Part shown: in pieces, positions 24,982-36,031 of the stretch
Layout of the letters: each line of letters starts with the position of its first letter
How positions within the stretch are numbered: the stretch's first letter is position 1
Assembly (NCBI GenBank): GCA_902536295.1
Contig: CACAWS010000001.1
Coordinates: forward strand, 142,658 to 206,657
Direction of reading: 5' to 3'
Origin: an uncultured SAR86 cluster bacterium
GTDB taxonomy: Bacteria; Pseudomonadota; Gammaproteobacteria; Magnimaribacterales; AG-339-G14
Length of the DNA: 64,000 bases
The notes under the pieces: generated by a model
Seen by the model: only the letters and a program-made list of their open reading frames with translations
What the model was told of the DNA's origin: nothing
The model's database searches: none
Translations under genes and position numbers: made by a program

Positions 24982-25579
24982 ATAGGAAGTAAAAAGGATT
25001 TTTAAGATCATCTTTACATTCTTTAAATTGCCTACGGTAATTATTAGCGGATCTTTGAACCTTGTCAGCTACACCTAAGAGCCATGGCTTTGATCTGTAG
25101 CTACCCTTTCTAAATCCTTCAGGGCCTTCATGGTAGGCTAAGTAAAGAGATCTTGCATTTTTATTTGAAATTCCTAAATTCTTACTATTTCTGTTGTTAT
25201 ACCAACCTATAAAATCAACGGAATCTGAAAAATTAGTTCTTGAGGCAAACGTTCTTCCGGCTTCTTTTTTGTATAATTCCCAAGTTCCATCAATAACTTG
25301 CGCATAGCCATAAGCACTACTTTGTCTTTTCCAAGGTATAAGGCCAAAAAAAATTCTTTCCCTATCAGGTTTTGCACCTTGTTGAAAACTTGATTCTTGT
25401 TTAATGAAAGCCAAAGTTATTGAAGGCTCTATATCCCATCTTTGATAAGTTCTTATTGACGCTTTATACCAACTTCTTTTTTCATCAAAGATTTCGCAAA
25501 TATCATTAGGACTTTTTGGGGGAGAATTTGCACAAGAACTCAATAGTAAGATTAATACAGTCAAATTTACTAACTTCAT
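24974..25579 (-). CDS. Lytic transglycosylase-like lipoprotein (SLT domain)
   Basis: Lipobox LSSC, QESSF, SSAYGYAQ..DGTW..Y, LYLAYHEG. Confidence 0.85.
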   Translation of the reverse strand: MKLVNLTVLILLLSSCANSPPKSPNDICEIFDEKRSWYKASIRTYQRWDIEPSITLAFIKQESSFQQGAKPDRERIFFGLIPWKRQSSAYGYAQVIDGTWELYKKEAGRTFASRTNFSDSVDFIGWYNNRNSKNLGISNKNARSLYLAYHEGPEGFRKGSYRSKPWLLGVADKVQRSANNYRRQFKECKDDLKNPFYFLFN

Positions 25580-27609
25580 GAATTTGAGATAAATTTTTCT
25601 AAATTAGAATCAGTAACAATTTTAACATCATACTCTTTTGCCTTTTGAAGTTTTGATCCTGAATCTTCTCCAGCAATTAAGAAATCTGTTTTCTTAGAAA
25701 CACTATTTGAAATTTTTGCCCCTAAACCTTCTAATTTAAATTTTAATGTTTCTCTTGAATAACCCGATAATCTGCCAGTTATAACAATCGTTTTATCAGT
25801 TAAATGACTTGTCTTTACAGAAACTGGAGGCTTAAGATCAAGGCCTAACTTTACTAATTCTTGAATAAGACTCAAATTTTTTTCGTTGGAAAAAAACTTT
25901 TCTAAATTACTAGCAGCTACTTCACCAACATCGTTGACTGAAATAAAATCATCGTAAGATGCTTTGGATAATTTATCTAAAGAGGTAAAAAAATTAGATA
26001 AATTTTTAGAAGTTTCTAAACCTATTTCTTTAATGCCAAGGGCGTAGATAAATCTGTAGAGATCGGTTTTCAAACTTGACTTAATAGATTCCAAAAGCTT
26101 CTTAGTTGATTTATCAGCAAAACCTTCTAAAGATAAAATATTTTCTGATGTAATTTTGAAAAGATCTGGTAAAGATTTAATAAATTCTTTTTCAATAAAT
26201 AAGTCAATTGTCCTTTGTCCTAGACCATCAATATCCATCGCATTTCTTGAAACAAAATGTTTTAAGGTTTCTTTAAATTGAGAGAACCCAAAACAATTTT
26301 TATTGGTAGTTGATAATAAACTTGTATCCAATAATGGAGTGTTAAGCTCAAAAAAAGAAACTGGATTACTGCAAGTTGGACAAGAGCTAGGCATCATTAT
26401 TTTTTTTCTATTTGGCTTCCTTTTTTTTAAAATAACTTCAGTTACCTTTGGAATTACATCTCCAGCCCTTATTATTTTTACATAATCTCCTACTCGTACA
26501 TCTAGTCTTTTTACCTCATCCATATTATGAAGCGTAGCATTAGAGATTGTTACTCCCCCCAGTTTTACAGGTTTTAAGTTTGCTACAGGAGTCAAAACTC
26601 CCGTTCTACCCATCTGGAAGGAAATTGAAAGAATCTCAGTCTCCCCTTGTTCTGCTAAAAATTTCTTAGCAATAGCCCATCTTGGTGATCTAGAAGAATT
26701 ACCCAATCTTTCTTGAAGTGATTTATCATTAATTTTTACAACTATTCCATCTATTTCATAATTTAATTTTTCTCTTTTAGCTGTCATTTTAAGTATTTGT
26801 CTATTTACTTTGTCGAGATTTTCGCAAAAGTAAATTTCATCAGAAACTGGAAGCCCCCAATCTTTGAACTTGCTAATCATTTCTTTTTGAGTGTTAAAGA
26901 AATTCCCCTTGGAAATAAAACCTACACTATGACAGAAAACTTTTAATGGTCTTTCTAATGCAATTTTCGAATCCAACTGTCTTATACTTCCTGCTACAAA
27001 ATTTCTAGGATTAGCAAAAACCTTTTGACCTCTTTTTTCAAAGTTTTGATTTATTTTTTTAAAATCATTTAATTCAACAAATATTTCTCCCCTAATTTCT
27101 ATTTCGTCAGGAAAATTATTTTTTAAAGATTTAGGAATTTCCGAAATCGTTTTAATGTTATGCGTGACTTCTTCACCAACTACCCCGTCACCTCTTGTAC
27201 CCGCTTTTGTCAAAATACCTTTTTTATAAAATAGACTTATTGCTACTCCATCAATTTTCGGCTCCACTAAATATGAAAAATTTACTTTTTCTTTGATCTT
27301 ATTTTGATTTCTCTTTTCAAAATCACTTAAGTCTTCCTCACTAAATGCGTTGTCTAGGGATAGCATTGGTATTAAGTGCTCAAAAGATGATAATTCGGAT
27401 AGTTTTATTGCTCCAACAAAGTTCGAAGGCGAATCAGAAATATCTAAAAAGTTATATTTTTTTTCAAGCTCCTTTAATTGTTTAAAAAGTTGATCAAATT
27501 CTTGATCTGATATTTCAGGATTATCTTCAGAGTGATATTTATTATTATGAAATCTTATTGTCTCTTTAAGATAAATGTGTTCTTTCTGGATATCTTCTTT
27601 CGATACCAT
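25576..27609 (-). CDS. ligA: NAD-dependent DNA ligase
   Basis: PMLSLDN, EPKIDG, TRGDG, ANPRN, IIRAGDVIP, HhH repeats, BRCT (SVSKKTD.L.AG...GSKL.KA). Confidence 0.96.
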   Translation of the reverse strand: MVSKEDIQKEHIYLKETIRFHNNKYHSEDNPEISDQEFDQLFKQLKELEKKYNFLDISDSPSNFVGAIKLSELSSFEHLIPMLSLDNAFSEEDLSDFEKRNQNKIKEKVNFSYLVEPKIDGVAISLFYKKGILTKAGTRGDGVVGEEVTHNIKTISEIPKSLKNNFPDEIEIRGEIFVELNDFKKINQNFEKRGQKVFANPRNFVAGSIRQLDSKIALERPLKVFCHSVGFISKGNFFNTQKEMISKFKDWGLPVSDEIYFCENLDKVNRQILKMTAKREKLNYEIDGIVVKINDKSLQERLGNSSRSPRWAIAKKFLAEQGETEILSISFQMGRTGVLTPVANLKPVKLGGVTISNATLHNMDEVKRLDVRVGDYVKIIRAGDVIPKVTEVILKKRKPNRKKIMMPSSCPTCSNPVSFFELNTPLLDTSLLSTTNKNCFGFSQFKETLKHFVSRNAMDIDGLGQRTIDLFIEKEFIKSLPDLFKITSENILSLEGFADKSTKKLLESIKSSLKTDLYRFIYALGIKEIGLETSKNLSNFFTSLDKLSKASYDDFISVNDVGEVAASNLEKFFSNEKNLSLIQELVKLGLDLKPPVSVKTSHLTDKTIVITGRLSGYSRETLKFKLEGLGAKISNSVSKKTDFLIAGEDSGSKLQKAKEYDVKIVTDSNLEKFISNS

Positions 27610-27612
27610 ATA

Positions 27613-28269
27613 CTAAGCAATATTATTTAAATCAAACTCTTCGGCAATCTGAGAGTAATGTTCAACCATTTGCTGAGTGAGAATATTTCTATCGGCGTCT
27701 AATATTTGAGTGGAATAGTTTTTAGCTGTTATTTCAGAAAATCTAATTAATTCTGTCAATGCATTGACGGAATTACTCTTAGGTTTCATTGAATAAATTA
27801 AAGTCATTACAGAAGTAGATAAAATATTTTCATCCTCCGAAAATTTACCGGGGTTTAATCCATTAACAAACATAAAATTATTTCCATCTTCTAAAATTAT
27901 CCTGAACCAACCACCTTCATCAATGAAGCTGAATTCAGAACTTTCAAGAAAATTAATTAAATTTTGGTATTCAAAGACTTGTTCTTCAGCTTCTAAATGA
28001 ATGGTAATAAGGTCTGAATTTTCTTCTGCACGGAAAACAGAATCATACTCAGCCTCTCCCTCAAACGTTTCTAAATCATCAATTTCAGATGGTTCGCTAA
28101 TAACTTCTTCGTCGGTTTTTAGTGTTGGTTCAAATAATTCTCTCGAATTTACTTTCTTATTTATTTCTATTGCTGATTTTTTCCCAAAAAAAATTCTTTT
28201 AAATATCAAAATTAATGTTACTGATATTGCTAAACCTAAAAGAATTATTATTATTTCATTAATGCTCAT
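27613..28269 (-). CDS. zipA: Cell division protein ZipA-like (short)
   Basis: N-terminal TM anchor, acidic linker, N...PG.F and LD.DR..LT.Q..EHY of the ZipA C-terminal domain; smc-zipA-ligA synteny. Confidence 0.7.
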   Translation of the reverse strand: MSINEIIIILLGLAISVTLILIFKRIFFGKKSAIEINKKVNSRELFEPTLKTDEEVISEPSEIDDLETFEGEAEYDSVFRAEENSDLITIHLEAEEQVFEYQNLINFLESSEFSFIDEGGWFRIILEDGNNFMFVNGLNPGKFSEDENILSTSVMTLIYSMKPKSNSVNALTELIRFSEITAKNYSTQILDADRNILTQQMVEHYSQIAEEFDLNNIA

Positions 28270-30701
28270 TATACCGCTGCTAATTTAATCGCCTCATCTA
28301 TGTCAACTGTCACTAATCTTGAAACACCCGGTTCTTGCATTGTAACTCCTATCAAATGTTTACTTTTTTCCATAGAAATTTTGTTGTGAGTGACAAATAT
28401 AAATTGAACTTGATTAGACATTTCTTCAACCATATTAATAAATCTTGAGGTATTAAAGTCATCTAAGGGAGCATCAATTTCATCCAAAATACAGAAAGGA
28501 GCTGGATTCAAAGAAAAGAAAGAAAAAACTAAAGCTATAGAAGACAATGCTTTCTCCCCTCCCGATAACTGAGATACATTAACGTTTTTCTTACCAGGCG
28601 GCATTGCTTTAAAAACGATACCTGTGTCTAGGATATCATCTGAAGTTGTTTCTAATTTTGCATGACCACCACCAAATAATTTGGGAAACAGTTCAGCAAT
28701 CTTTATATTCAAACTATCATAAGTATCTTTAAACAACGTCTTTGATTCTTGATCAATTTTTTTGATAGCATTTTCTAGAGTTTTCAATGCGCTTTCTAAC
28801 TCTTCAATTTGATCGACGATTTCTTTTTTTCTTTCTTCTTCAATTTTAAATTCTTCTGTTGCTGCTAGATTAATTGGACCAATTCTTTCTATAGACTGTT
28901 CTACTTTCGTTATTTCATCGATGAAATTTTCTTCAGTGTCATTTGCTGACAATTCATCTAAAAGGATATTAATGTCATACCCATCTTTTTCAAGCTGTTT
29001 CAAGTAAATTTCAGCTTCAGAAAGATAGCCTTGTCTATTTATTTTTGAATCCTGCGAATCTTTACGGATTCTTTCTATTTCTATATCAGACTCATGCAAA
29101 GATCGTTCAAGAGTTCTTATTTCTTCAGAAAGATTAGAAAATTCATTTCTTATTTCAGTCAAAGAGTCTTCTACGGAACTTCTAGAATCTAGTAAAGGCT
29201 TTATATCTATTTCCAGTTTCTTAATTGGCTCGTCTAATGCGCTAATATCTGAGGAAACTTGTACAAGCTGATTTTTCTTATTTTCTTCATCATTTATGTA
29301 AGATTCTTTTTCACTAGAAATTTGAGCTATCTTTACTTTCAAATTTGTAATTTCAGAACTCAAGCTTAATAACTTGTCTTTTTGAACTGTAAATTTCTCT
29401 TCCTGTTTCGAAGTCTGGTTTTCTATAGCTTCTATGAGTTTTTTTATTTTGCTGTCAAATTTTAAAACTGTATCAAGAGTTTCTTCTAAATTTTTTGCTT
29501 TGAAATTATTAAAATCTCTTCTATAGGTCTCAAGGTTCGATTTTAATTCTTCAACCTCCAGCAACAATTGTTTGGATAAAAAAATCGGAGACAGAGCACC
29601 ATCAAGCTGAGAGATTGAAGCATCCATTTTTTGAAGCAACGGTTCTTTTTCTTTTAGCTCATCTTGAAGCTCAATTAATTTATTATTGTTTCTCTCGTGT
29701 AATCCTTCAAAATTTCTAATTTCATTTTTTAAATTAGCTTCTTGTTGAATCAAGTCATTTCTTTGCCCTTTCAAGAATACAAGTTCTTGCTCAGACTTTG
29801 AGAGCTTAGCTCCACTTGAATAAAACTCTTCTTGAGTTTTATTTATTTCTAGTTGGATTTCATCCTGTCTAACTTTTGATTTATCGATTGTAGATTGAAT
29901 TCCTTGTTTATTAGAATTTACTTTTTCTATTTCTAATTCAATTTCTTTAATCGATAAATTTAACTTTGCTGCGGCTTCAGTTTTTTGCTGCCAATTGAAA
30001 GTTTTAAGAAGAGAATTTAATTTTTTTTCTTTATCTTTAAGCTCATTGTATCTCTCCGCGGACTTAACTTGTTGTTTTAACTTTAGTAGCTGTCGATCAA
30101 TTTCATCTTGCAAGTCAGATACCCTATTTAAATTTTCTTTAGTTCTTTTAATCCTTGATTCTGTCTCTTTTCTTCTTTCTTTGTAAACCGAGATACCAGC
30201 GACCTCTTCAATGTATGCTCTTAACTCCTCTGGTTTTGAGCTAATAAGCTTAGTTGCCATTTCCTGTTCTATAACCGCATAACTTCTTGGACCCAATCCC
30301 GTGCCTAAAAAGATATCGGTTATATCTTTTCTTCTGCATTCTGAGTTATTCAAGTAATAAGTTGATTTACCATCTATATCTACAGTTCTTTTCACGCTGA
30401 TTTCTGAATAAGAAGAATATTCTCCACCAATTCTGCCATCGTCGTTATCGAATAAAAGCTCAACTGATGCTCTAGCTGATGGCGCTCTTGAGGAGGAACC
30501 ATTAAAAATGATGTCTGCCATTGATTCTCCTCTAAGGTTTTTAGCTGAAATTTCACCCATAACCCATCTTACAGCATCAATGATATTAGATTTACCGCAA
30601 CCATTAGGGCCTACAACTCCTGACATTTCGCTGGGGAAGGCTATCTTCGTTGGATCAACGAAAGATTTAAAACCTGATAGGCTAATGTTTTTTAACCTCA
30701 T
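28269..30701 (-). CDS. smc: Chromosome segregation ATPase Smc, short form (810 aa) with no visible hinge
   Basis: GFKSF, Walker A GPNGCGKSN, GP.NLAA.EE, signature LSGGEK, Walker B FCILDEIDAPLD, GVTMQEPGVS. Confidence 0.92.
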   Translation of the reverse strand: MRLKNISLSGFKSFVDPTKIAFPSEMSGVVGPNGCGKSNIIDAVRWVMGEISAKNLRGESMADIIFNGSSSRAPSARASVELLFDNDDGRIGGEYSSYSEISVKRTVDIDGKSTYYLNNSECRRKDITDIFLGTGLGPRSYAVIEQEMATKLISSKPEELRAYIEEVAGISVYKERRKETESRIKRTKENLNRVSDLQDEIDRQLLKLKQQVKSAERYNELKDKEKKLNSLLKTFNWQQKTEAAAKLNLSIKEIELEIEKVNSNKQGIQSTIDKSKVRQDEIQLEINKTQEEFYSSGAKLSKSEQELVFLKGQRNDLIQQEANLKNEIRNFEGLHERNNNKLIELQDELKEKEPLLQKMDASISQLDGALSPIFLSKQLLLEVEELKSNLETYRRDFNNFKAKNLEETLDTVLKFDSKIKKLIEAIENQTSKQEEKFTVQKDKLLSLSSEITNLKVKIAQISSEKESYINDEENKKNQLVQVSSDISALDEPIKKLEIDIKPLLDSRSSVEDSLTEIRNEFSNLSEEIRTLERSLHESDIEIERIRKDSQDSKINRQGYLSEAEIYLKQLEKDGYDINILLDELSANDTEENFIDEITKVEQSIERIGPINLAATEEFKIEEERKKEIVDQIEELESALKTLENAIKKIDQESKTLFKDTYDSLNIKIAELFPKLFGGGHAKLETTSDDILDTGIVFKAMPPGKKNVNVSQLSGGEKALSSIALVFSFFSLNPAPFCILDEIDAPLDDFNTSRFINMVEEMSNQVQFIFVTHNKISMEKSKHLIGVTMQEPGVSRLVTVDIDEAIKLAAV

Positions 30702-30757
30702 ACCAATATAGAAAACACTATTTTATATGATTTCTAGCAATCAATCATGTAAAAAAA

Positions 30758-31321
30758 TTATTCTTCTAAAGCTTTTATTGCAGCATTCATAACAATAATG
30801 AGTGATTTTTTTTCTTCATCCGATTCCACATTGTCTAGTGCTATTGCCCAATGTTTAAGAGATTCCTGATAATTTTCATCGTTATAGAAAAAAAGTCCCT
30901 TTAAAGTTAGAGCTTTATAATTTGATGGATCTAAAAAGAGAGAGTTTTCTATATTTTTTAAAATAATTTCATCAAATTCCTTTGTATTTTTTAAGTACAT
31001 AGACTCTGCATATCTTGCATAAATATCTGAATCAATCAGATTGGGATACCTATCCATAAATTCTTTATAAACCTTTGATGACTGATCATAAAACCTTTTT
31101 GAAGAGAGATCCGTTGCGAGTAAATAAAGTTGTTCAGAGGAAAGTTTACTCTCCAATAGAGAATTAACATTATTATTCAGATTTTCTGCTAAAACCTGGG
31201 TTTCAGAGTTTTGATAAAAATTAGAGAACTGTAAGCTCTTAAGGTTATCAGTACCGAAGAAATAAAAATATACAAATACTGTTATTAACAAAGAAATGAC
31301 AACGCTGTAAGTTTGATTCAT
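30758..31321 (-). CDS. ccmI: TPR protein CcmI/CycH-like
   Basis: TM anchor; TPR-like YAESMY and LDPSNYKAL.L.G...Y...W; last gene of the ccm operon. Confidence 0.65.
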   Translation of the reverse strand: MNQTYSVVISLLITVFVYFYFFGTDNLKSLQFSNFYQNSETQVLAENLNNNVNSLLESKLSSEQLYLLATDLSSKRFYDQSSKVYKEFMDRYPNLIDSDIYARYAESMYLKNTKEFDEIILKNIENSLFLDPSNYKALTLKGLFFYNDENYQESLKHWAIALDNVESDEEKKSLIIVMNAAIKALEE

Positions 31322-31692
31322 TTATGTTTAATTTTAAATAAAGCTAACAATGCCAAAAATACTAAAATCAATGGGAAAATGTATAGTAACAAAGTCGATA
31401 AATTTCGAGGTGGAGAGAATAAAACATCATCTCCAAATTTGCTTGCTACTTGATCTTTTATTTCAGATTTGGTTTTTCCTTTTGAAATTTCCTTGTAAAT
31501 AAAATCTTTAATATCCAAGGCAATTGGTGCAGATGAGCCGCTTACATTTGAACCAGCGCATAGCGGACAACCTATTTCATAAATTAATTCATCAAATAAG
31601 TTTTTTTGAGCCTCAGATTCAAACGAGAAAAGATTTGTTTCAGCAAAACTGAATGCAGAAATAAATAACAAAGAAATTAATAGTTTAATCAT
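31318..31692 (-). CDS. ccmH: Cytochrome c biogenesis protein CcmH
   Basis: CPLC...V..S.APIA.D, FGD.VLF.PP, C-terminal TM. Confidence 0.85.
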   Translation of the reverse strand: MIKLLISLLFISAFSFAETNLFSFESEAQKNLFDELIYEIGCPLCAGSNVSGSSAPIALDIKDFIYKEISKGKTKSEIKDQVASKFGDDVLFSPPRNLSTLLLYIFPLILVFLALLALFKIKHK

Positions 31693-32194
31693 TTATTAAA
31701 GGGAGAAAATTTTTATTCCAGATTTTCTCATCCATTATGCCAATATGTTTATATAAAATTTTATTTTGTTTATTAACCAAATAAGTTTCAGGCGCTCCAG
31801 CAACTCCTAATTCAAAGCCTAACTCGCCCTTTTGATCTAATATATTGTTACTGAAAGGATTCCCGAACTGAGTAAGCCATTTGTTTGCTTTTTCTAAATT
31901 ATCTTTGTAATTAAGACCAATGATTTTAAAATTTTGATTTTTTAAGGACATTAAAAATCCATGTTCTAATTTGCAATTAATACACCAAGTCGCCCAGACA
32001 TTTATTAATTTATACTCATCTTCTTTAAATATTGATTGATCAATCTTTTTTCCATTTAAGTCAGTCATATTAAAATAAGGAATATCAGAAACTATTAAAG
32101 GTTCTTTTTTTTCAGAATTTAAGTTCCACACAAAAAGTAATGAAATTATTCCCACAAATACCAAAGGCAATAGTATTAGATAATTTTTATTCAT
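31685..32194 (-). CDS. ccmG: Thiol:disulfide interchange protein CcmG/DsbE
   Basis: NVWATWCINC..EH, G.NYKD, GV.GAPETY. Confidence 0.92.
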   Translation of the reverse strand: MNKNYLILLPLVFVGIISLLFVWNLNSEKKEPLIVSDIPYFNMTDLNGKKIDQSIFKEDEYKLINVWATWCINCKLEHGFLMSLKNQNFKIIGLNYKDNLEKANKWLTQFGNPFSNNILDQKGELGFELGVAGAPETYLVNKQNKILYKHIGIMDEKIWNKNFLPLIND

Positions 32195-34083
32195 TTAACA
32201 AACATTCTTCTAGAAAAAGAAAAGATTCCTCCTAAGCACATCAAAATTGAACCCAACCATATAAACCTAACAAAAGGCTTGGTTTGTAACTTGGCAATCC
32301 ATTCTCCTGAGTCAAGTCTTTCACTCAAACTTATGTAAACATCTTCCTTTGGAGTAATTGCAATAGCTGATTCTGTCATAATGCTTCTAGATGCAGGATA
32401 GAAAGACTTTTCTGGTTTTAAGTCAAAGTTCTTTCCGTTACTAAGGTTTTCTACATTAAAAATAGCTATCTGTGAATAAAAGTTAGGTTCTTCTTTGAAA
32501 TCTTCTGCAATCAAAGTAAATTCATAATTACTTAACGTCGCACTTTCTCCAATTTCTAAAATAACCTCTTTTGAATTGGAATGACTTGAAACCACGCCGA
32601 TTCCAAAAATAGTTACTGCAATGCCAATGTGAGCAAGGTTCATTCCTAATTTATTAAGGAAGATTTTCTTGTCATTATAAGTTTTTAATGCAGAAATTAT
32701 GACTCCTGAAAGAATAAATGAAATCATGATGATGCCTAATACATTAAACAAACTGAGAAAATTGAATATTAAATAAGAAAAAATAAATGAAATAAAAATC
32801 ATCAAACTTACAGTAATTAGAAAAGATTTGATTGAATTTGCTGAAGAGCCCCAGTTCGTAAGAACACCATAGCCTTGAAAAAAAGCTAGAAAAAAAGCTA
32901 TGGGAACCGTAACTAGATTGAAATATGGCGCTCCGACACTTATGGTCTTACCATCACTGAAAATTTCATAAAAAATAGGATAGACCGTTCCAAATAGAAT
33001 TATTACGGCAAGTATCACTAAGAATAAATTATTAATTAATAGAAAGTACTCTTTCGAAATAATCGAATAATTTAATGAATTATTATCTGAAATATCTGAT
33101 CTAAAAAAAATAAAAAAAGAATACAAAGTGATTGCTAATGTAATCAAAAGAAGTATCAAGCCCCTTTCAGGATCTAAAGCAAAAGAATGTACAGAAGTTA
33201 GAATTCCAGATCTTACTAGGAACATTCCTATAAAGCATCCAATGACGCTTAGAATTGATAATACAATAGTCCAATTATTAAAAATTTTTCTTGAATTACT
33301 TACAATAGCTGAATGAAATAATGCCGTTGCTAATAACCAAGGGACTAAAGAAGAATTTTCAACAGGATCCCAAAACCACCAACCACCCCAACCTAACTCG
33401 TAGTAGGCCCACCAACTGCCTAAAGCAATACCTAAAGTTAAAAAAGACCATGAAATTACAGTCCAATTTCTTATATACATCGTCCAACCTTCTGAAACAT
33501 TAAAACATCTAGCTAAAGCAAGTGAGAAAGGAATTATTAGCCCTGCATAACCAAGATAGAGAATCGGAGGATGGATGGTGAAAGCAAAATCTTGAAGCAA
33601 TGGATTTAGGTCAGTGCCAGACATTGAGGCAATTGGAATTAGTCTTTCAAAAGGATTTGAAGAGAAAATAATAAAACCTAATAGCGAAAATAGAATTAAA
33701 TGAGCAAATGAAAGAACAAGATTTTTTTCTTCAATCTTTGAATATGAACTTAGCAAATTAAAAACCACCATCCAAATACTTATTATTAATACAAAAAGCA
33801 AAAGCGATCCTTCATGACCGCCCCAGAGAGCCGAAAATTTGTAATACATCGGAAGATTCGGATTAGAATTATTAGCTACATAAAGGACACTAAAGTCATC
33901 AGTTAAAAAAGAAAATTCAAGAATGAAAAAACTAGCTAATAATAAAGTAAATATTAAATAAATATTTTTACTGAGATCAAAGATTTTGATATCGGCATAA
34001 TATGAATAAGTTGCACTAATAAAACTCAATAATGAAACTGAGAATGCAAGAATTAACAAAATATTACCAATTTCAGGAATCAT
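32191..34083 (-). CDS. ccmF: Heme lyase CcmF
   Basis: WGGHEGSLL, LNPLLQ, HPP.LYLGY, WAYYELGWGGWWFWDPVEN, SVHSFA. Confidence 0.96.
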   Translation of the reverse strand: MIPEIGNILLILAFSVSLLSFISATYSYYADIKIFDLSKNIYLIFTLLLASFFILEFSFLTDDFSVLYVANNSNPNLPMYYKFSALWGGHEGSLLLFVLIISIWMVVFNLLSSYSKIEEKNLVLSFAHLILFSLLGFIIFSSNPFERLIPIASMSGTDLNPLLQDFAFTIHPPILYLGYAGLIIPFSLALARCFNVSEGWTMYIRNWTVISWSFLTLGIALGSWWAYYELGWGGWWFWDPVENSSLVPWLLATALFHSAIVSNSRKIFNNWTIVLSILSVIGCFIGMFLVRSGILTSVHSFALDPERGLILLLITLAITLYSFFIFFRSDISDNNSLNYSIISKEYFLLINNLFLVILAVIILFGTVYPIFYEIFSDGKTISVGAPYFNLVTVPIAFFLAFFQGYGVLTNWGSSANSIKSFLITVSLMIFISFIFSYLIFNFLSLFNVLGIIMISFILSGVIISALKTYNDKKIFLNKLGMNLAHIGIAVTIFGIGVVSSHSNSKEVILEIGESATLSNYEFTLIAEDFKEEPNFYSQIAIFNVENLSNGKNFDLKPEKSFYPASRSIMTESAIAITPKEDVYISLSERLDSGEWIAKLQTKPFVRFIWLGSILMCLGGIFSFSRRMFVK

Positions 34084-34084
34084 A

Positions 34085-34504
34085 TTACTCAAGAGCTTTT
34101 TTTACCTCTTTTGGTACATAGTTTTCATCGTGTTTAGCCAATATTTCATAAGCTATAAATTCGTTTGAAGTTGAATAAAAATACCCTGTTGCCACAACTC
34201 CTTTATTTTCTTTGAACAAATCTGGTAACAGTCCTTCATAAGATACAGAAATAGTGTTTTTTAAGTCTGTAATTTCAAATTTAATTTTTAATGAATCTTT
34301 ATCCCTTTTTAAAGAGTTTTCTTTAACTAATCCTCCTGCTCTTATAGATTTATCTGACACTGGAGGATTATTCTTAAGATCTGTTGGGGAATAAAATAGA
34401 TTAATATTTTCTTGCAAAGCAGAAAATACTAAAAAAATAGAAATAAGAATTGAAATTCCTACAAATAAAATAACGTATATTCTATTTTTCCTATGTTGTT
34501 TCAA
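34085..34504 (-). CDS. ccmE: Heme chaperone CcmE
   Basis: NLFYSP, IRAGGLV, PDLF.E..GVVA.G, LAKHDENY.P. Confidence 0.95.
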   Translation of the reverse strand: MKQHRKNRIYVILFVGISILISIFLVFSALQENINLFYSPTDLKNNPPVSDKSIRAGGLVKENSLKRDKDSLKIKFEITDLKNTISVSYEGLLPDLFKENKGVVATGYFYSTSNEFIAYEILAKHDENYVPKEVKKALE

Positions 34505-34631
34505 TTTTCTTTAAGTTTTTTTTTATTTTATTAAGTTTAATTAAGGGCCAAATATAATTAAACAAAAGAATAATTATCGTTAAAAAGCAAACTGACAATA
34601 AGTGAAAATTTTCGCTAAATAATTCAATCAT
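34491..34631 (-). CDS. ccmD: Probable CcmD (46 aa)
   Basis: Hand translation: MIELFSENFHLLSVCFLTIILLFNYIWPLIKLNKIKKNLKKIETT. Single TM plus basic tail; overlaps ccmC and ccmE at the expected position. Confidence 0.7.
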   Translation of the reverse strand: MIELFSENFHLLSVCFLTIIILLFNYIWPLIKLNKIKKNLKKIETT

Positions 34632-35385
34632 TTTTTTTTACCATTTTTTTAAACCAATCTTTAGTCATTTCCCTTTTTGCAATTTCAGTTCTCATGGCCA
34701 TTAACCCAAAAACAAAAACCATTAAATAAAAAGACAAAATACAAATCAGGAGAGGATATAACATCTCAGAAGAGATGGTAGATTCTTCAAAAATTCTAAT
34801 ACTAGAGGGCTGATGTAATGTATTCCACCAATCGACCGATTTTTTAATTATCGGTAAATTTACAGCGCCTACCATTGCTAAAATTGATACTGCCTGGTCA
34901 GCTGTTTTTTTATTATCAAAAGAAGAATACAAACCAATTATTGCCAAATAAAATAATAGTAGAACCAAAGTAGAAGTTAACCTTGCGTCCCATACCCACC
35001 ATGTTCCCCAAGTTGGTTGACCCCATATAGCTCCTGAAACAAGAGCCAATATTGTGAAAGAAGCTCCTATAGGAGCCATCGCTTTAATGAATAAACCTGC
35101 CATTTTCATTTTCCAGACTAAATAAACAAAGCCTGCTATTGCTAGAGAAAAATAGATTGATTGCGCTACAGACGCAGCGGGTACGTGCATGTAAATTATT
35201 CTATAAATTTCTCCCTGCGTGACATCGCTGGGAGAATAAAAAATTCCCCACACTATTCCTAATAAAAAAATCATAAATGCCAGAAAAGTTGAAATGGGCA
35301 ATAATTTTGAAGAAATACTATAAAACCAAGGATAAGAGCCAAGCTTATGATAAAAAAGTGTTATTGACCCTAATATCTTATTCAT
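34624..35385 (-). CDS. ccmC: Heme exporter CcmC
   Basis: YRIIYMHVP, WGQPTWGTWWVWDARLTS, WWNTLHQ. Confidence 0.96.
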   Translation of the reverse strand: MNKILGSITLFYHKLGSYPWFYSISSKLLPISTFLAFMIFLLGIVWGIFYSPSDVTQGEIYRIIYMHVPAASVAQSIYFSLAIAGFVYLVWKMKMAGLFIKAMAPIGASFTILALVSGAIWGQPTWGTWWVWDARLTSTLVLLLFYLAIIGLYSSFDNKKTADQAVSILAMVGAVNLPIIKKSVDWWNTLHQPSSIRIFEESTISSEMLYPLLICILSFYLMVFVFGLMAMRTEIAKREMTKDWFKKMVKKND

Positions 35386-36031
35386 AATGAAGTCTTATTG
35401 CTCCTATACATGCAATTGAGATAATCGGCACAGAAAAAAATAATAACGCCAACAGTAATAAAATAAAAAACGTTATGTTTTCGCTAGAGTAAGTTGAAGC
35501 ACTCGAACCTAAAATTAGGACAGGCAAACTGAGAGGTAACATTATAGCTGATGCCAAAATAGAGTTTCTTCCTAGTGAAAGAGCGCCGGCTAAAGCTCCG
35601 AAAAAAGAAATAATTAGCGTTCCGATAAATAAAGAACCTATTAAATTTAAGAGCTTTTCTAATGGAAAATAAAGTAAAAACACCATTGAACAAGATAATA
35701 AAATAAGTGGTAACGCCGTGAATATCCAATTAACGAAAATCTTTATCAACACCACTTGCAGCATTGAGAACCTTCTCACATAAAATAAATCTAACGAACC
35801 GTCATCGTAATCTTCTTTAAAAATAGTTTGAATCGACAGCATGCCAGCCAAAAGTATACATATCCAAATTAATCCAGGAGCTAATCTAGATAATTCTTTA
35901 GGATCGTTCGATATCGCTAAAGGAAAAAAAGCAATGCATATTAAAAAAAATATAACTGGACTAATGACGTTCGAAGATTTTTTTGAATAAATCAATACTT
36001 CCCTAGAAAAAAAACTTTTTAAAAAAATCAT
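35378..36031 (-). CDS. ccmB: Heme exporter CcmB
   Basis: FPLAI, APG..W, F.EDYDDGSLD, LPL.LP.LI.G. Confidence 0.9.
   Translation of the reverse strand: MIFLKSFFSREVLIYSKKSSNVISPVIFFLICIAFFPLAISNDPKELSRLAPGLIWICILLAGMLSIQTIFKEDYDDGSLDLFYVRRFSMLQVVLIKIFVNWIFTALPLILLSCSMVFLLYFPLEKLLNLIGSLFIGTLIISFFGALAGALSLGRNSILASAIMLPLSLPVLILGSSASTYSSENITFFILLLLALLFFSVPIISIACIGAIRLHYE

What the first reader, a model, noticed from the sequence alone, without database searches (positions are those of the whole stretch)
28269..30701. Apparently hinge-less Smc at the canonical smc-zipA-ligA locus
Seen: one uninterrupted 810-aa ORF with all head motifs (Walker A, LSGGEK, Walker B/D-loop, joint GP.NLAA). Between about aa 170 and 650 it is almost pure coiled coil, with no Gly-rich alpha/beta segment. 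The only breaks are DGALSPIF (aa 367-374, near nt 29580-29603) and a short FNNFKAKN turn near aa 400, about the midpoint between the two head lobes. The Q-loop reads IEQE instead of the usual IEQG. Known: bacterial Smc is about 1150-1200 aa and dimerises through a globular hinge with a GX6GX3GG-type motif; RecN instead dimerises through its coiled-coil tips. Inference: about 350 aa, including the hinge and distal arms, were lost in frame, and a roughly 60-aa amphipathic hairpin (aa 372-430) may be a new dimer interface. This would be a minimal condensin and a natural test of whether loop extrusion needs a hinge or a set arm length.
Basis: partly seen in the sequence, partly recalled or inferred. 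Interest (0 to 1): 0.85.

Follow-up and report, generated by a model that had tools for sequence, protein, structure and literature searches.

The report
Hinge-less short Smc of SAR86 bacteria
The chromosome-organising Smc protein of this small marine (SAR86-type) bacterium has truly lost its central hinge and the outer third of its arms and ends instead in a small helical cap, a natural test of what the hinge is for, although hinge-less ocean SMCs of another lineage were reported in 2025.

Summary
Window 28269-30701 (-) is one open 810-aa frame with intact Smc head motifs, upstream of zipA and ligA. It passes the bacterial Smc model TIGR02168 (792 bits, cut-off 567) but matches only profile positions 1-363 and 753-1181. 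It has no SMC_hinge match, while 3 of 3 full-length gammaproteobacterial controls do.

It is neither a lesion nor a misassembly. In all four families of the order, named SAR86 from record titles, Smc comes in tight length classes of 727-734, 809-810, 821-827 and 995-996 aa. No hinge was found in 121 genomes. ScpA and ScpB are kept, in 55 of 55 near-complete genomes. dN/dS is about 0.04 for the gene and 0.05 for the tip.

An alignment-based AlphaFold model puts two extra helices (aa 372-395, 402-427) at the arm tip. A dimer model scores 0.56 against 0.00 for controls, with a parallel four-helix-bundle interface. That interface is modelled only.

Prior art: Sussfeld et al. 2025 reported hinge-less ocean SMCs assigned to Actinomycetes. 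This scan has already noted the SAR86 type on six other genomes.

The parts
28269..30701 (-). smc gene, 810 aa plus stop: hinge-less, short-armed Smc
   Evidence: ORF. TIGR02168 792 bits against cut-off 567. Pfam SMC_N, no SMC_hinge.
30207..30701 (-). N-terminal head lobe (aa 1-165), with Walker A (nt 30588-30611) and Q-loop IEQE (nt 30261-30272)
   Evidence: Motif positions. Best PDB sequence match is the B. subtilis Smc head, 5xg3, E 3e-101. Strands and helices in the model.
29613..30194 (-). N-terminal arm helix (aa 170-363)
   Evidence: One continuous helix H170-363 in the AlphaFold model. Aligns to TIGR02168 positions up to 363.
29412..29612 (-). Tip cap (aa 364-430) that stands where the hinge should be. 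It has break 364-371 (within DGALSPIF, nt 29580-29603), helix 372-395 (nt 29517-29588), turn 396-401 (nt 29499-29516), helix 402-427 (nt 29421-29498) and break 428-430.
   Evidence: Secondary structure. Dimer-model interface residues 372-427. dN/dS 0.05. No family or PDB sequence match for aa 341-450 (best E 0.03 and 0.33).
28902..29411 (-). C-terminal arm helix (aa 431-600)
   Evidence: H431-572 and following helices. Aligns to TIGR02168 positions 753 onward.
28767..28901 (-). Joint region (aa 601-645), with GPINLAA at nt 28860-28880
   Evidence: Motif. Conserved in all forms in the alignment.
28272..28766 (-). C-terminal head lobe (aa 646-810), with signature LSGGEK (nt 28551-28568) and Walker B/D-loop (nt 28461-28493)
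27613..28269 (-). zipA, immediately downstream (context)
   Evidence: Pfam ZipA_C, E 5.6e-10.
25576..27609 (-). ligA, NAD-dependent DNA ligase (context)
   Evidence: Pfam DNA_ligase_aden, OB, HHH_2 and BRCT.

Best explanation
This is the orthologous, working Smc subunit of the Smc-ScpAB condensin of a SAR86-order gammaproteobacterium. An ancestor of the order lost the globular hinge and the distal part of both arm strands in frame. The two arm helices (about 195-210 residues each, against about 335 in full-length relatives) are now joined by a 67-residue cap made of two short helices (aa 372-395 and 402-427). I infer that two such caps pack side by side, in register, into a four-helix bundle. 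This bundle would hold the Smc dimer together at the end far from the ATPase heads, doing the constitutive dimerisation job of the hinge. ScpA and ScpB would close the ring at the heads, and ParB would load it as in other bacteria. Shown: hinge loss, order-wide conservation, purifying selection, retention of ScpA, ScpB and ParB, and a helical cap in the model. Inferred: dimerisation through the cap, ring formation, and DNA loading and translocation.
For: Orthology:
- TIGR02168 scores 792 bits against a cut-off of 567, in two stretches: aa 2-366 to profile 1-363 and aa 378-801 to profile 753-1181.
- The gene sits in smc-zipA-ligA synteny.
- The nearest 50%-identity cluster representatives after the short forms are 1130-1190-aa Smc at 36-50% identity.

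Hinge loss:
- PF06470 is absent from the protein at E<=1, from the six frames of the own genome and from 121 of 121 genomes of the order.
- It is present at 34-39 bits in 3 of 3 full-length gammaproteobacterial Smc controls, and absent from the 4 other SAR86 forms scanned (995, 732, 827 and 733 aa).
- In a class-wide sample, 65 of 79 genomes outside the order carry one uninterrupted match to profile 1-1181. Of the two genomes of the order in that sample, both show the internal gap.

Not a lesion or artefact:
- 111 of 121 genomes of the order have the gene, with no stops inside the listed matches.
- The 99 proteins extracted from these and other fetched loci (86 short forms and 13 full-length outgroups) gave 809-810 aa (33), 821-827 (21), 727-734 (14), 995-996 (18) and 1168-1172 for the outgroups.
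- The best 120 of the protein clusters found were listed, and most are 810-aa forms at 69-100% identity seen on many contigs.
- DNA contigs of two studies and an RNA-library contig cross nt 29385-29754 with no indel.

Selection (Nei-Gojobori, 51 of 325 pairs with dS 0.1-1.0): whole gene 0.039, tip 0.050, N-arm 0.051, C-arm 0.085.

Partners:
- ScpA and ScpB are adjacent on contig C13 of the own genome.
- Each is found in 112 of 121 genomes of the order and in 55 of 55 of those at least 90% complete.
- ParB is present. MukB was not found.

Cap: the AlphaFold model built on 46 short forms (pLDDT 75.4) gives H170-363, H372-395, H402-427 and H431-572.

Dimer (aa 310-490, two copies):
- ipSAE was 0.54, 0.56 and 0.59 in three runs. 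The best of 3 controls scored 0.00.
- The runs agree in at least 50% of contacts, and the partner's pLDDT is at least 71.
- The mark was reached by 20 of 30 proteins solved as pairs and by 1 of 23 solved as single chains. These counts hold only roughly, because my own alignment was used.
- The interface covers residues 372-427 and 433-474.
- Pairs 409:390, 412:386, 419:380 and 423:376, plus the self-pair 408:408, fit a parallel in-register bundle.
Against: - The dimer interface is only a model. Coiled-coil fragments are easily laid side by side, and the three runs differ widely in contact number (79, 239, 156).
- I could not inspect coordinates, so the four-helix-bundle geometry is read from the contact list.
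- The two cap helices are no better conserved in sequence than the most variable arm segments within the family. Column identity is 0.31-0.41 at aa 381-420, against 0.58-0.60 at aa 351-375 and 431-450.
Probability is at most 2%, the same as tip-versus-arm controls, while arms give 85-97%.
- So one shared dimer module for the whole order is not shown.
- No biochemical or genetic data exist for any SAR86 protein.
- The own genome is only 82% complete.
Confidence: 0.6

Rival explanations
1. The protein is a working Smc, but the tip does not dimerise. Two Smc molecules would be held together only at the heads, by ATP-dependent engagement and by ScpA bridging the neck of one and the cap of the other. 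The cap would then be just a way to turn the helix, and the complex an open two-armed clamp rather than a ring closed at both ends.
For: Cap helices are weakly conserved in sequence. Caps are not recognisably homologous between families. ScpA and ScpB are retained, which is all this reading needs.
Against: The homodimer model passes its mark against three controls, with an interface centred on the cap. The tip is under purifying selection as strong as the arms (dN/dS 0.05). Lengths are held within 1-8 residues inside each class, which fits a precise register rather than a mere turn. In engineered B. subtilis Smc the hinge could be replaced only by another dimerisation module, the Rad50 zinc hook (PMC5344682, passages and strain table seen).
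Confidence: 0.22
2. The cap is a docking site for another factor (a protein or DNA) that bridges two Smc molecules or replaces the DNA-binding role of the hinge.
For: The best conserved arm segments flank the cap (aa 351-375, including KEPLLQKMDASISQLDGALSPIF, and aa 431-450). They could form a binding surface.
Against: No candidate partner gene is linked to smc. The neighbours are zipA, ligA and ccm genes. No family match exists for the cap. Nothing here tests the idea.
Confidence: 0.1
3. The shortened protein has changed job, for example to a RecN-like DNA-repair cohesion factor, and no longer acts as condensin.
For: RecN also lacks a hinge (recalled knowledge, not tested here). recN (TIGR00634) was over its cut-off in 0 of 58 genomes of the order, 57 of them at least 90% complete.
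Against: The protein scores as the Smc equivalog. RecN is not among the 25 best NCBIfam matches shown, out of 29 found. The gene keeps the smc locus and keeps ScpA, ScpB and ParB. No other Smc, MukB or hinge gene was found to take over the condensin role.
Confidence: 0.05
4. The gene is an assembly artefact or a decaying gene.
For: The genome is a 22-contig assembly, 82% complete.
Against: The same architecture appears in 111 of 121 genomes of the order, including single-contig genomes. It is seen on many independent contigs and in contigs of other studies. dN/dS is 0.04. The frames are intact with tightly conserved lengths.
Confidence: 0.01

Closest known systems
Canonical bacterial Smc of Smc-ScpAB (NCBIfam TIGR02168; B. 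subtilis Smc, PDB 5xg3, 3zgx; full-length gammaproteobacterial Smc of 1166-1172 aa)
   Same: ATPase head motifs, joint, and head-proximal arm sequence. Identity to full-length relatives is 36-50%. The heads match B. subtilis Smc structures at E 1e-100. The locus is smc-zipA-ligA, and ScpA, ScpB and ParB are in the genome.
   Different: No hinge domain. Profile positions 364-752 are missing. Arms are about 195-210 residues instead of about 335. A 67-residue two-helix cap sits at the tip. The Q-loop reads IEQE instead of IEQG.
Hinge-less oceanic SMC cluster of Sussfeld et al. 2025 (Environ Microbiome 20:65, PMC12153180; outline, section 15 and passages read; supplements not seen)
   Same: [quoted passage not shown] Abundant in ocean metagenomes. 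Not found together with a regular SMC.
   Different: Their cluster branches near actinobacterial seeds and is annotated as Actinomycetes. This protein is gammaproteobacterial (SAR86). The paper gives no tip structure, dimer model, partner genes or length classes, and its main text does not mention SAR86, Gammaproteobacteria or ScpA.
Engineered Mini-Smc and Smc(Zh) of B. subtilis (Burmann et al. 2017, Mol Cell 65:861, PMC5344682; sections 8 and 9 and passages read)
   Same: Shortened arms can work: constructs with arms of 253-267 aa were functional. The hinge can be replaced by a different dimerisation module, the Pyrococcus Rad50 zinc hook.
   Different: Those are laboratory constructs that keep a hinge or a zinc hook. 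Here nature uses a metal-free helical cap. My rough arm estimates (about 175, 206 and 307 aa) do not fall clearly on that paper's modes (163, 238, 341), and I could not apply its estimator.
Rad50/SbcC and RecN (SMC-like proteins without a hinge)
   Same: ABC head plus antiparallel coiled coil, with dimerisation at or near the coiled-coil tip.
   Different: No CxxC zinc hook. Rad50 models score far below their cut-offs. RecN is not among the 25 best NCBIfam matches shown, out of 29 found. Foldseek ranks Smc head structures first. The partners are ScpA and ScpB, not Mre11/SbcD.
This scan's earlier notes on the same protein type in other SAR86 genomes and on other hinge-less SMCs (e1-2269140, e1-2329741, e1-2388298, e1-3577281, e1-5050642, e1-2265990; Patescibacteria, soil actinobacterium, DPANN zinc-hook cases)
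   Same: Same architecture, same locus, and the same 727-aa and 995-aa relatives.
   Different: Those notes are unchecked AI notes on other DNA.

Membership tests
Bacterial Smc (Smc-ScpAB; TIGR02168 equivalog) | Whole-protein score above the curated cut-off of the equivalog model | tested here: met
   792 bits against cut-off 567.
Bacterial Smc (Smc-ScpAB; TIGR02168 equivalog) | ABC head with Walker A, Q-loop, signature motif, Walker B/D-loop and H-loop | tested here: met
   All found at aa 31-38, 144-147, 712-717, 737-747 and 770-774. The residue after the Q-loop Gln is E, not G.
Bacterial Smc (Smc-ScpAB; TIGR02168 equivalog) | Central globular hinge dimerisation domain (Pfam PF06470) | tested here: not met
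   No match at E<=1. Controls were 3 of 3 positive. The model is all-helical between the heads.
Bacterial Smc (Smc-ScpAB; TIGR02168 equivalog) | Arms of about 340 residues per strand | tested here: not met
   N-arm helix is aa 170-363. The anchor-to-anchor distance is 315 aa against 674 aa in full-length relatives.
Bacterial Smc (Smc-ScpAB; TIGR02168 equivalog) | Kleisin ScpA and kite ScpB encoded in the genome | tested here: met
   PF02616 108 bits and PF04079 166 bits, adjacent on contig C13. Each is in 112 of 121 genomes of the order.
Bacterial Smc (Smc-ScpAB; TIGR02168 equivalog) | Constitutive homodimer joined at the end far from the heads | tested here: inconclusive
   Only a model: score 0.56 against best control 0.00.
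Bacterial Smc (Smc-ScpAB; TIGR02168 equivalog) | Gammaproteobacterial smc-zipA-ligA gene order | tested here: met
Hinge-less oceanic SMC cluster (Sussfeld et al. 2025) | SMC heads and coiled coil with neither hinge nor CxxC hook | tested here: met
Hinge-less oceanic SMC cluster (Sussfeld et al. 2025) | Member of their monophyletic clade near actinobacterial SMC | not testable with these tools
   Their sequences are in supplements, which are closed. The nearest full-length relatives found here come from a sample of the window's own class and from records titled Gammaproteobacteria. This argues for a separate lineage.
Rad50/SbcC | CxxC zinc hook at the coiled-coil apex | tested here: not met
   Cys only at aa 35, 122 and 737.
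RecN | Match to TIGR00634 | tested here: not met
   Not among the 25 best NCBIfam matches shown, out of 29 found at E<=0.1. No match at E<=0.001 in the six frames of the own genome.
MukB | Match to the MukB N-terminal domain (PF04310) | tested here: not met
   No match in the own genome at E<=0.01. The genome is 82% complete.

The most novel reading that the evidence does not exclude
A whole order of abundant free-living marine bacteria runs its only condensin without a hinge. Dimerisation has moved to a metal-free four-helix-bundle cap. Arm length is then set in discrete classes by matched deletions and duplications on both strands of the coiled coil (about 175, 206 and 307 residues). If so, the hinge is dispensable for chromosome organisation by Smc-ScpAB in nature, and arm length is a tuned, evolvable parameter.
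Probability: 0.45. Interest if true: 0.8.

Novelty: new variant of a known kind. Interest (0 to 1): 0.6.

Why it matters
The hinge is treated as a hallmark of SMC proteins. It is the constitutive dimer interface, a DNA-binding site and a proposed DNA gate. A conserved, selected, partner-retaining Smc without it, in one of the commonest groups of ocean bacteria, gives a natural counterpart to the engineered hinge swaps and arm truncations of B. subtilis Smc.

It offers small proteins (727-810 aa) for structural work and single-molecule loop-extrusion assays. It also offers a series of natural arm lengths, including a re-lengthened form, to test arm-length rules.

The value is tempered in two ways. 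Hinge-less ocean SMCs of another lineage were reported in 2025. This scan has also already met the SAR86 type on other genomes.

Tried and rejected
- **AlphaFold without an alignment** gave a useless model (pLDDT 46.9) and was replaced by the alignment-based run.
- **Foldseek of the full model against the PDB** returned only SMC and Rad50 head-plus-coil structures with poor global superposition (TM 0.2-0.35). It says nothing about the tip.
- **The tip alone (aa 341-450)** found no family (best E 0.03, below cut-offs) and no solved relative (best E 0.33).
- **Profile comparison of the tips of the four families** showed no homology beyond coiled-coil background. I therefore dropped the claim that one ancestral cap is shared by the order.
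- **Fit of arm lengths to the published modes** (163, 238, 341 aa; PMC5344682). My anchor-based estimates (about 175, 206, 307) do not fit clearly. I could not reproduce that paper's estimator, so I make no claim.
- **A stand-alone hinge gene, a second Smc, MukB and RecN** were sought in the own genome and not found. The genome is 82% complete, so absence is not proven.
- **BLAST self-comparison of the 995-aa form** gave no off-diagonal hit. The duplications were seen only in the family alignment.
- **Literature searches that found no description of a SAR86 or gammaproteobacterial hinge-less Smc:**
  - 'SMC' + 'hinge' + 'SAR86' (1 unrelated paper).
  - 'hingeless' + 'Smc' + 'coiled'.
  - 'lacks the hinge' + 'SMC' + 'bacteria' + 'coiled-coil'.
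  - 'hinge-less' + 'SMC' (4 papers hold the terms and 3 were listed; only PMC12153180 is relevant).
- **RNA-library contigs** cover most of the gene, but such libraries can hold DNA. Transcription is therefore not shown.
Full report
**Observation.** The window holds one uninterrupted 810-aa frame at 28269-30701 on the minus strand. zipA (Pfam ZipA_C) and NAD-dependent ligA follow directly downstream, and ccmH lies upstream.
- Walker A at aa 31-38
- Q-loop IEQE at aa 144-147
- signature LSGGEK at aa 712-717
- Walker B/D-loop at aa 737-747
- joint GPINLAA at aa 608-614
- DGALSPIF at aa 367-374 (nt 29580-29603)
- FNNFKAKN at aa 397-404

The only cysteines are at aa 35, 122 and 737, so there is no CxxC hook.

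**Is it Smc, and is the hinge really gone?**
- Pfam finds SMC_N in two stretches and no SMC_hinge, even at E<=1.
- NCBIfam places the protein above the cut-off of the bacterial Smc equivalog TIGR02168 (792 bits against 567).
- The six-frame search of the genome gives the two matched pieces: profile 1-363 (aa 2-366) and profile 753-1181 (aa 378-801). Profile positions 364-752 have no counterpart.
- The Pfam hinge model did not ring for Caulobacter in the tool's control set, so I ran my own controls. Three of 3 full-length gammaproteobacterial Smc proteins match PF06470 at 34-39 bits (aa 524-623). None of the other SAR86 forms I scanned (995, 732, 827 and 733 aa) matches it.
- A MAFFT alignment with full-length relatives shows the short proteins lacking the whole hinge block and the flanking distal arm.
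- The distance between a conserved N-arm anchor (FYxxGA) and the joint motif is 315 aa here and 674 aa in full-length relatives, a loss of 359 aa.
- No hinge match exists anywhere in the six frames of the own genome (0.99 Mb, 22 contigs, 82% complete).

**Not a lesion, not an artefact.**
- Record titles of related loci name SAR86 single-cell genomes (SCGC AAA168-P09, AAA076-P13) and Mediterranean MAGs, so the order is SAR86.
- Across 121 genomes drawn evenly from its four families, 111 carry the gene, with no stops inside the listed matches, and none carries a hinge.
- The 99 proteins I extracted (86 short forms and 13 full-length outgroups) fall into tight length classes (family assignment):

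| Length (aa) | Count | Where |
|---|---|---|
| 809-810 | 33 | the window's family |
| 821-827 | 21 | second family |
| 727-734 | 14 | third and fourth families |
| 995-996 | 18 | three genera of the third family |
| 1168-1172 | 13 | outgroups only |

- In a class-wide sample, 65 of 79 genomes outside the order have one uninterrupted full-length match to TIGR02168. Both genomes of the order in that sample show the internal gap. One of the 65 rows is an unpublished genome, G160, and the claim does not depend on it.
- The protein database holds many clusters of the 810-aa form. The best 120 were listed, most of them 810 aa at 69-100% identity, on many contigs.
- Among the best 150 representatives at 50% identity, only five are short forms of 732-995 aa (810, 827, 732, 990, 995). 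Three more are 1071-1132 aa, and the rest are 1133-1188 aa.
- Contigs of two independent DNA studies (28993-30675 and 28993-30760) and one contig from an RNA library (29385-29754) cross the tip-coding region without any indel. The RNA contig does not prove transcription.

**Selection and partners.** Nei-Gojobori dN/dS was computed on 51 of 325 pairs of 26 unique 810-aa genes, those with dS 0.1-1.0:

| Region | dN/dS |
|---|---|
| Whole gene | 0.039 |
| Tip (aa 364-430) | 0.050 |
| N-arm | 0.051 |
| C-arm | 0.085 |
| Heads | about 0.01 |

- ScpA and ScpB lie side by side on another contig of the own genome.
- Each is found in 112 of 121 genomes of the order, and in 55 of 55 that are at least 90% complete.
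- ParB is present.
- MukB and RecN were not found.

So this is the lineage's only recognisable condensin ATPase, and it keeps its kleisin and kite partners.

**What stands in place of the hinge.**
- A single-sequence AlphaFold run was useless (pLDDT 47).
- With an alignment of 46 short forms the model reaches pLDDT 75.4. It gives one long N-arm helix (170-363), a break (364-371, in the conserved DGALSPIF), helix 372-395, a turn (396-401), helix 402-427, a break (428-430) and the C-arm helix from 431.
- Three reversals return the chain towards the head.
- There is no strand and no Gly-rich segment.
- The cap has no family or solved relative by sequence.

**Does the cap dimerise?**
- A homodimer prediction of aa 310-490 scored 0.54, 0.56 and 0.59 in three runs, against 0.00 for the best of three controls.
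- The runs agree in at least 50% of their contacts, and the partner's pLDDT is at least 71.
- In the tool's calibration the mark was reached by 20 of 30 proteins solved as pairs and by 1 of 23 solved as single chains. These counts hold only roughly, because my own alignment was used.
- The interface lists the same residues in both copies, with a heptad-like spacing through 372-427 and on along the C-arm (433-474).
- The tightest pairs (409:390, 412:386, 419:380, 423:376) join helix 402-427 of one copy to helix 372-395 of the other, in the register expected within a hairpin. Residue 408 touches its own twin.
- I read this as two caps side by side and in register: a four-helix bundle with the two arms running parallel, like the rod state of canonical Smc.
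- This reading comes from the contact list. I could not see coordinates, and such models tend to lay helical chains side by side.

**Points against a strong claim.**
- Within the family the cap helices are as variable in sequence as the most variable arm segments. The conserved islands flank the cap, at aa 351-375 and 431-450.

The cap may therefore be a structural solution re-made several times, or the hinge may have been lost with later remodelling.

**The 995-aa relatives.** Compared with the 727-734-aa form of the same family, they carry two inserts:
- About 120 aa just before the tip. This repeats the distal N-arm segment, including its 'SP' helix-start motif.
- About 143 aa on the C-arm. 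This repeats the segment down to a second joint-like motif.

Both strands of the antiparallel arm were thus lengthened by similar amounts. Whether this is a secondary re-lengthening, as its distribution suggests, needs a rooted tree.

**Comparison with what is known.**
- Burmann et al. 2017 (PMC5344682; sections 8 and 9 and passages read). Engineered B. subtilis Smc tolerates arms shortened to 253-267 aa, and its hinge can be replaced by a Rad50 zinc hook. Natural arm lengths cluster at 163, 238, 341 and more residues. Their survey located arms by finding the hinge, so hinge-less proteins could not appear in it.
- Sussfeld et al. 2025 (PMC12153180; outline, section 15 and passages read). They reported an abundant 'hinge-less' SMC cluster in ocean metagenomes without a CxxC motif. 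They annotated it as Actinomycetes and offered no dimer mechanism. Their main text mentions neither SAR86, Gammaproteobacteria nor ScpA.
- My four literature searches found no description of the SAR86 case.
- This scan's own notes show the same protein type was already picked up on six other genomes. Hinge-less SMCs were also noted in Patescibacteria, a soil actinobacterium and DPANN archaea. The paper lead came from one of those notes, and I checked it by reading the paper.

**Verdict.** What is shown:
- a real, order-wide, selected, hinge-less and short-armed Smc
- an intact motor and retained ScpA, ScpB and ParB partners
- a two-helix cap at the tip, in a model of moderate confidence

What is inferred: the cap is the new dimer interface, and the complex still entraps and moves along DNA.

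Novelty is moderate. It is a new variant, from an independent gammaproteobacterial lineage, with a cap and discrete arm-length classes. The hinge-less kind itself was first reported in 2025 for another lineage.

Noticed in passing
L039:2001-4985 (+) and 17 other loci (e.g. L055, L058, L134-L138): Three genera of a sister family carry a 995-996-aa hinge-less Smc. Compared with the 727-734-aa form it has two matched inserts: about 120 aa repeating the distal N-arm with its 'SP' motif, and about 143 aa repeating the C-arm down to a second joint-like motif (GSFNLASPEE besides GAINLAAPEE). Both strands of the arm were lengthened together.
   Followed up: partly
window 30261-30272 (-), aa 144-147: The residue after the Q-loop glutamine is Glu (IEQE) in 33 of 33 proteins of the 809-810-aa class. 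It is Asp in 8 of 21 of the 821-827-aa class, and Gly in all other forms and in the 13 full-length outgroups. The consequence for ATP hydrolysis is unknown.
   Followed up: partly
whole genomes of the order (no window coordinates): recN (TIGR00634) was over its cut-off in 0 of 58 genomes of the order, 57 of them at least 90% complete. The only weak matches fall on smc itself or on open frames of about 360 aa that I did not identify. The lineage seems to lack RecN.
   Followed up: partly
window 29634-29654 and 29580-29603 (-), aa 350-376: The best conserved stretch of the whole coiled coil within the family is KEPLLQKMDASISQLDGALSPIF, at the base of the cap. A Ser-Pro helix-start motif also stands at the tip of the 727-734-aa forms (LSPKEKA). 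The Pro near aa 354 is also present in full-length gammaproteobacterial Smc.
   Followed up: no
window 31318-36031 (-): A run of cytochrome c maturation genes lies upstream of smc. ccmH was confirmed by Pfam. The others, large membrane ORFs resembling ccmF, ccmE, ccmC and ccmB, are named from the look of their translations only.
   Followed up: no
G185 and G181 in the class sample: Two other gammaproteobacterial genomes show fragmented or partial TIGR02168 matches. G185 has pieces 1-424, 399-760 and 862-1181 in open frames of 703 and 514 aa. G181 has only 807-1181. These may be broken or otherwise unusual smc genes.
   Followed up: no
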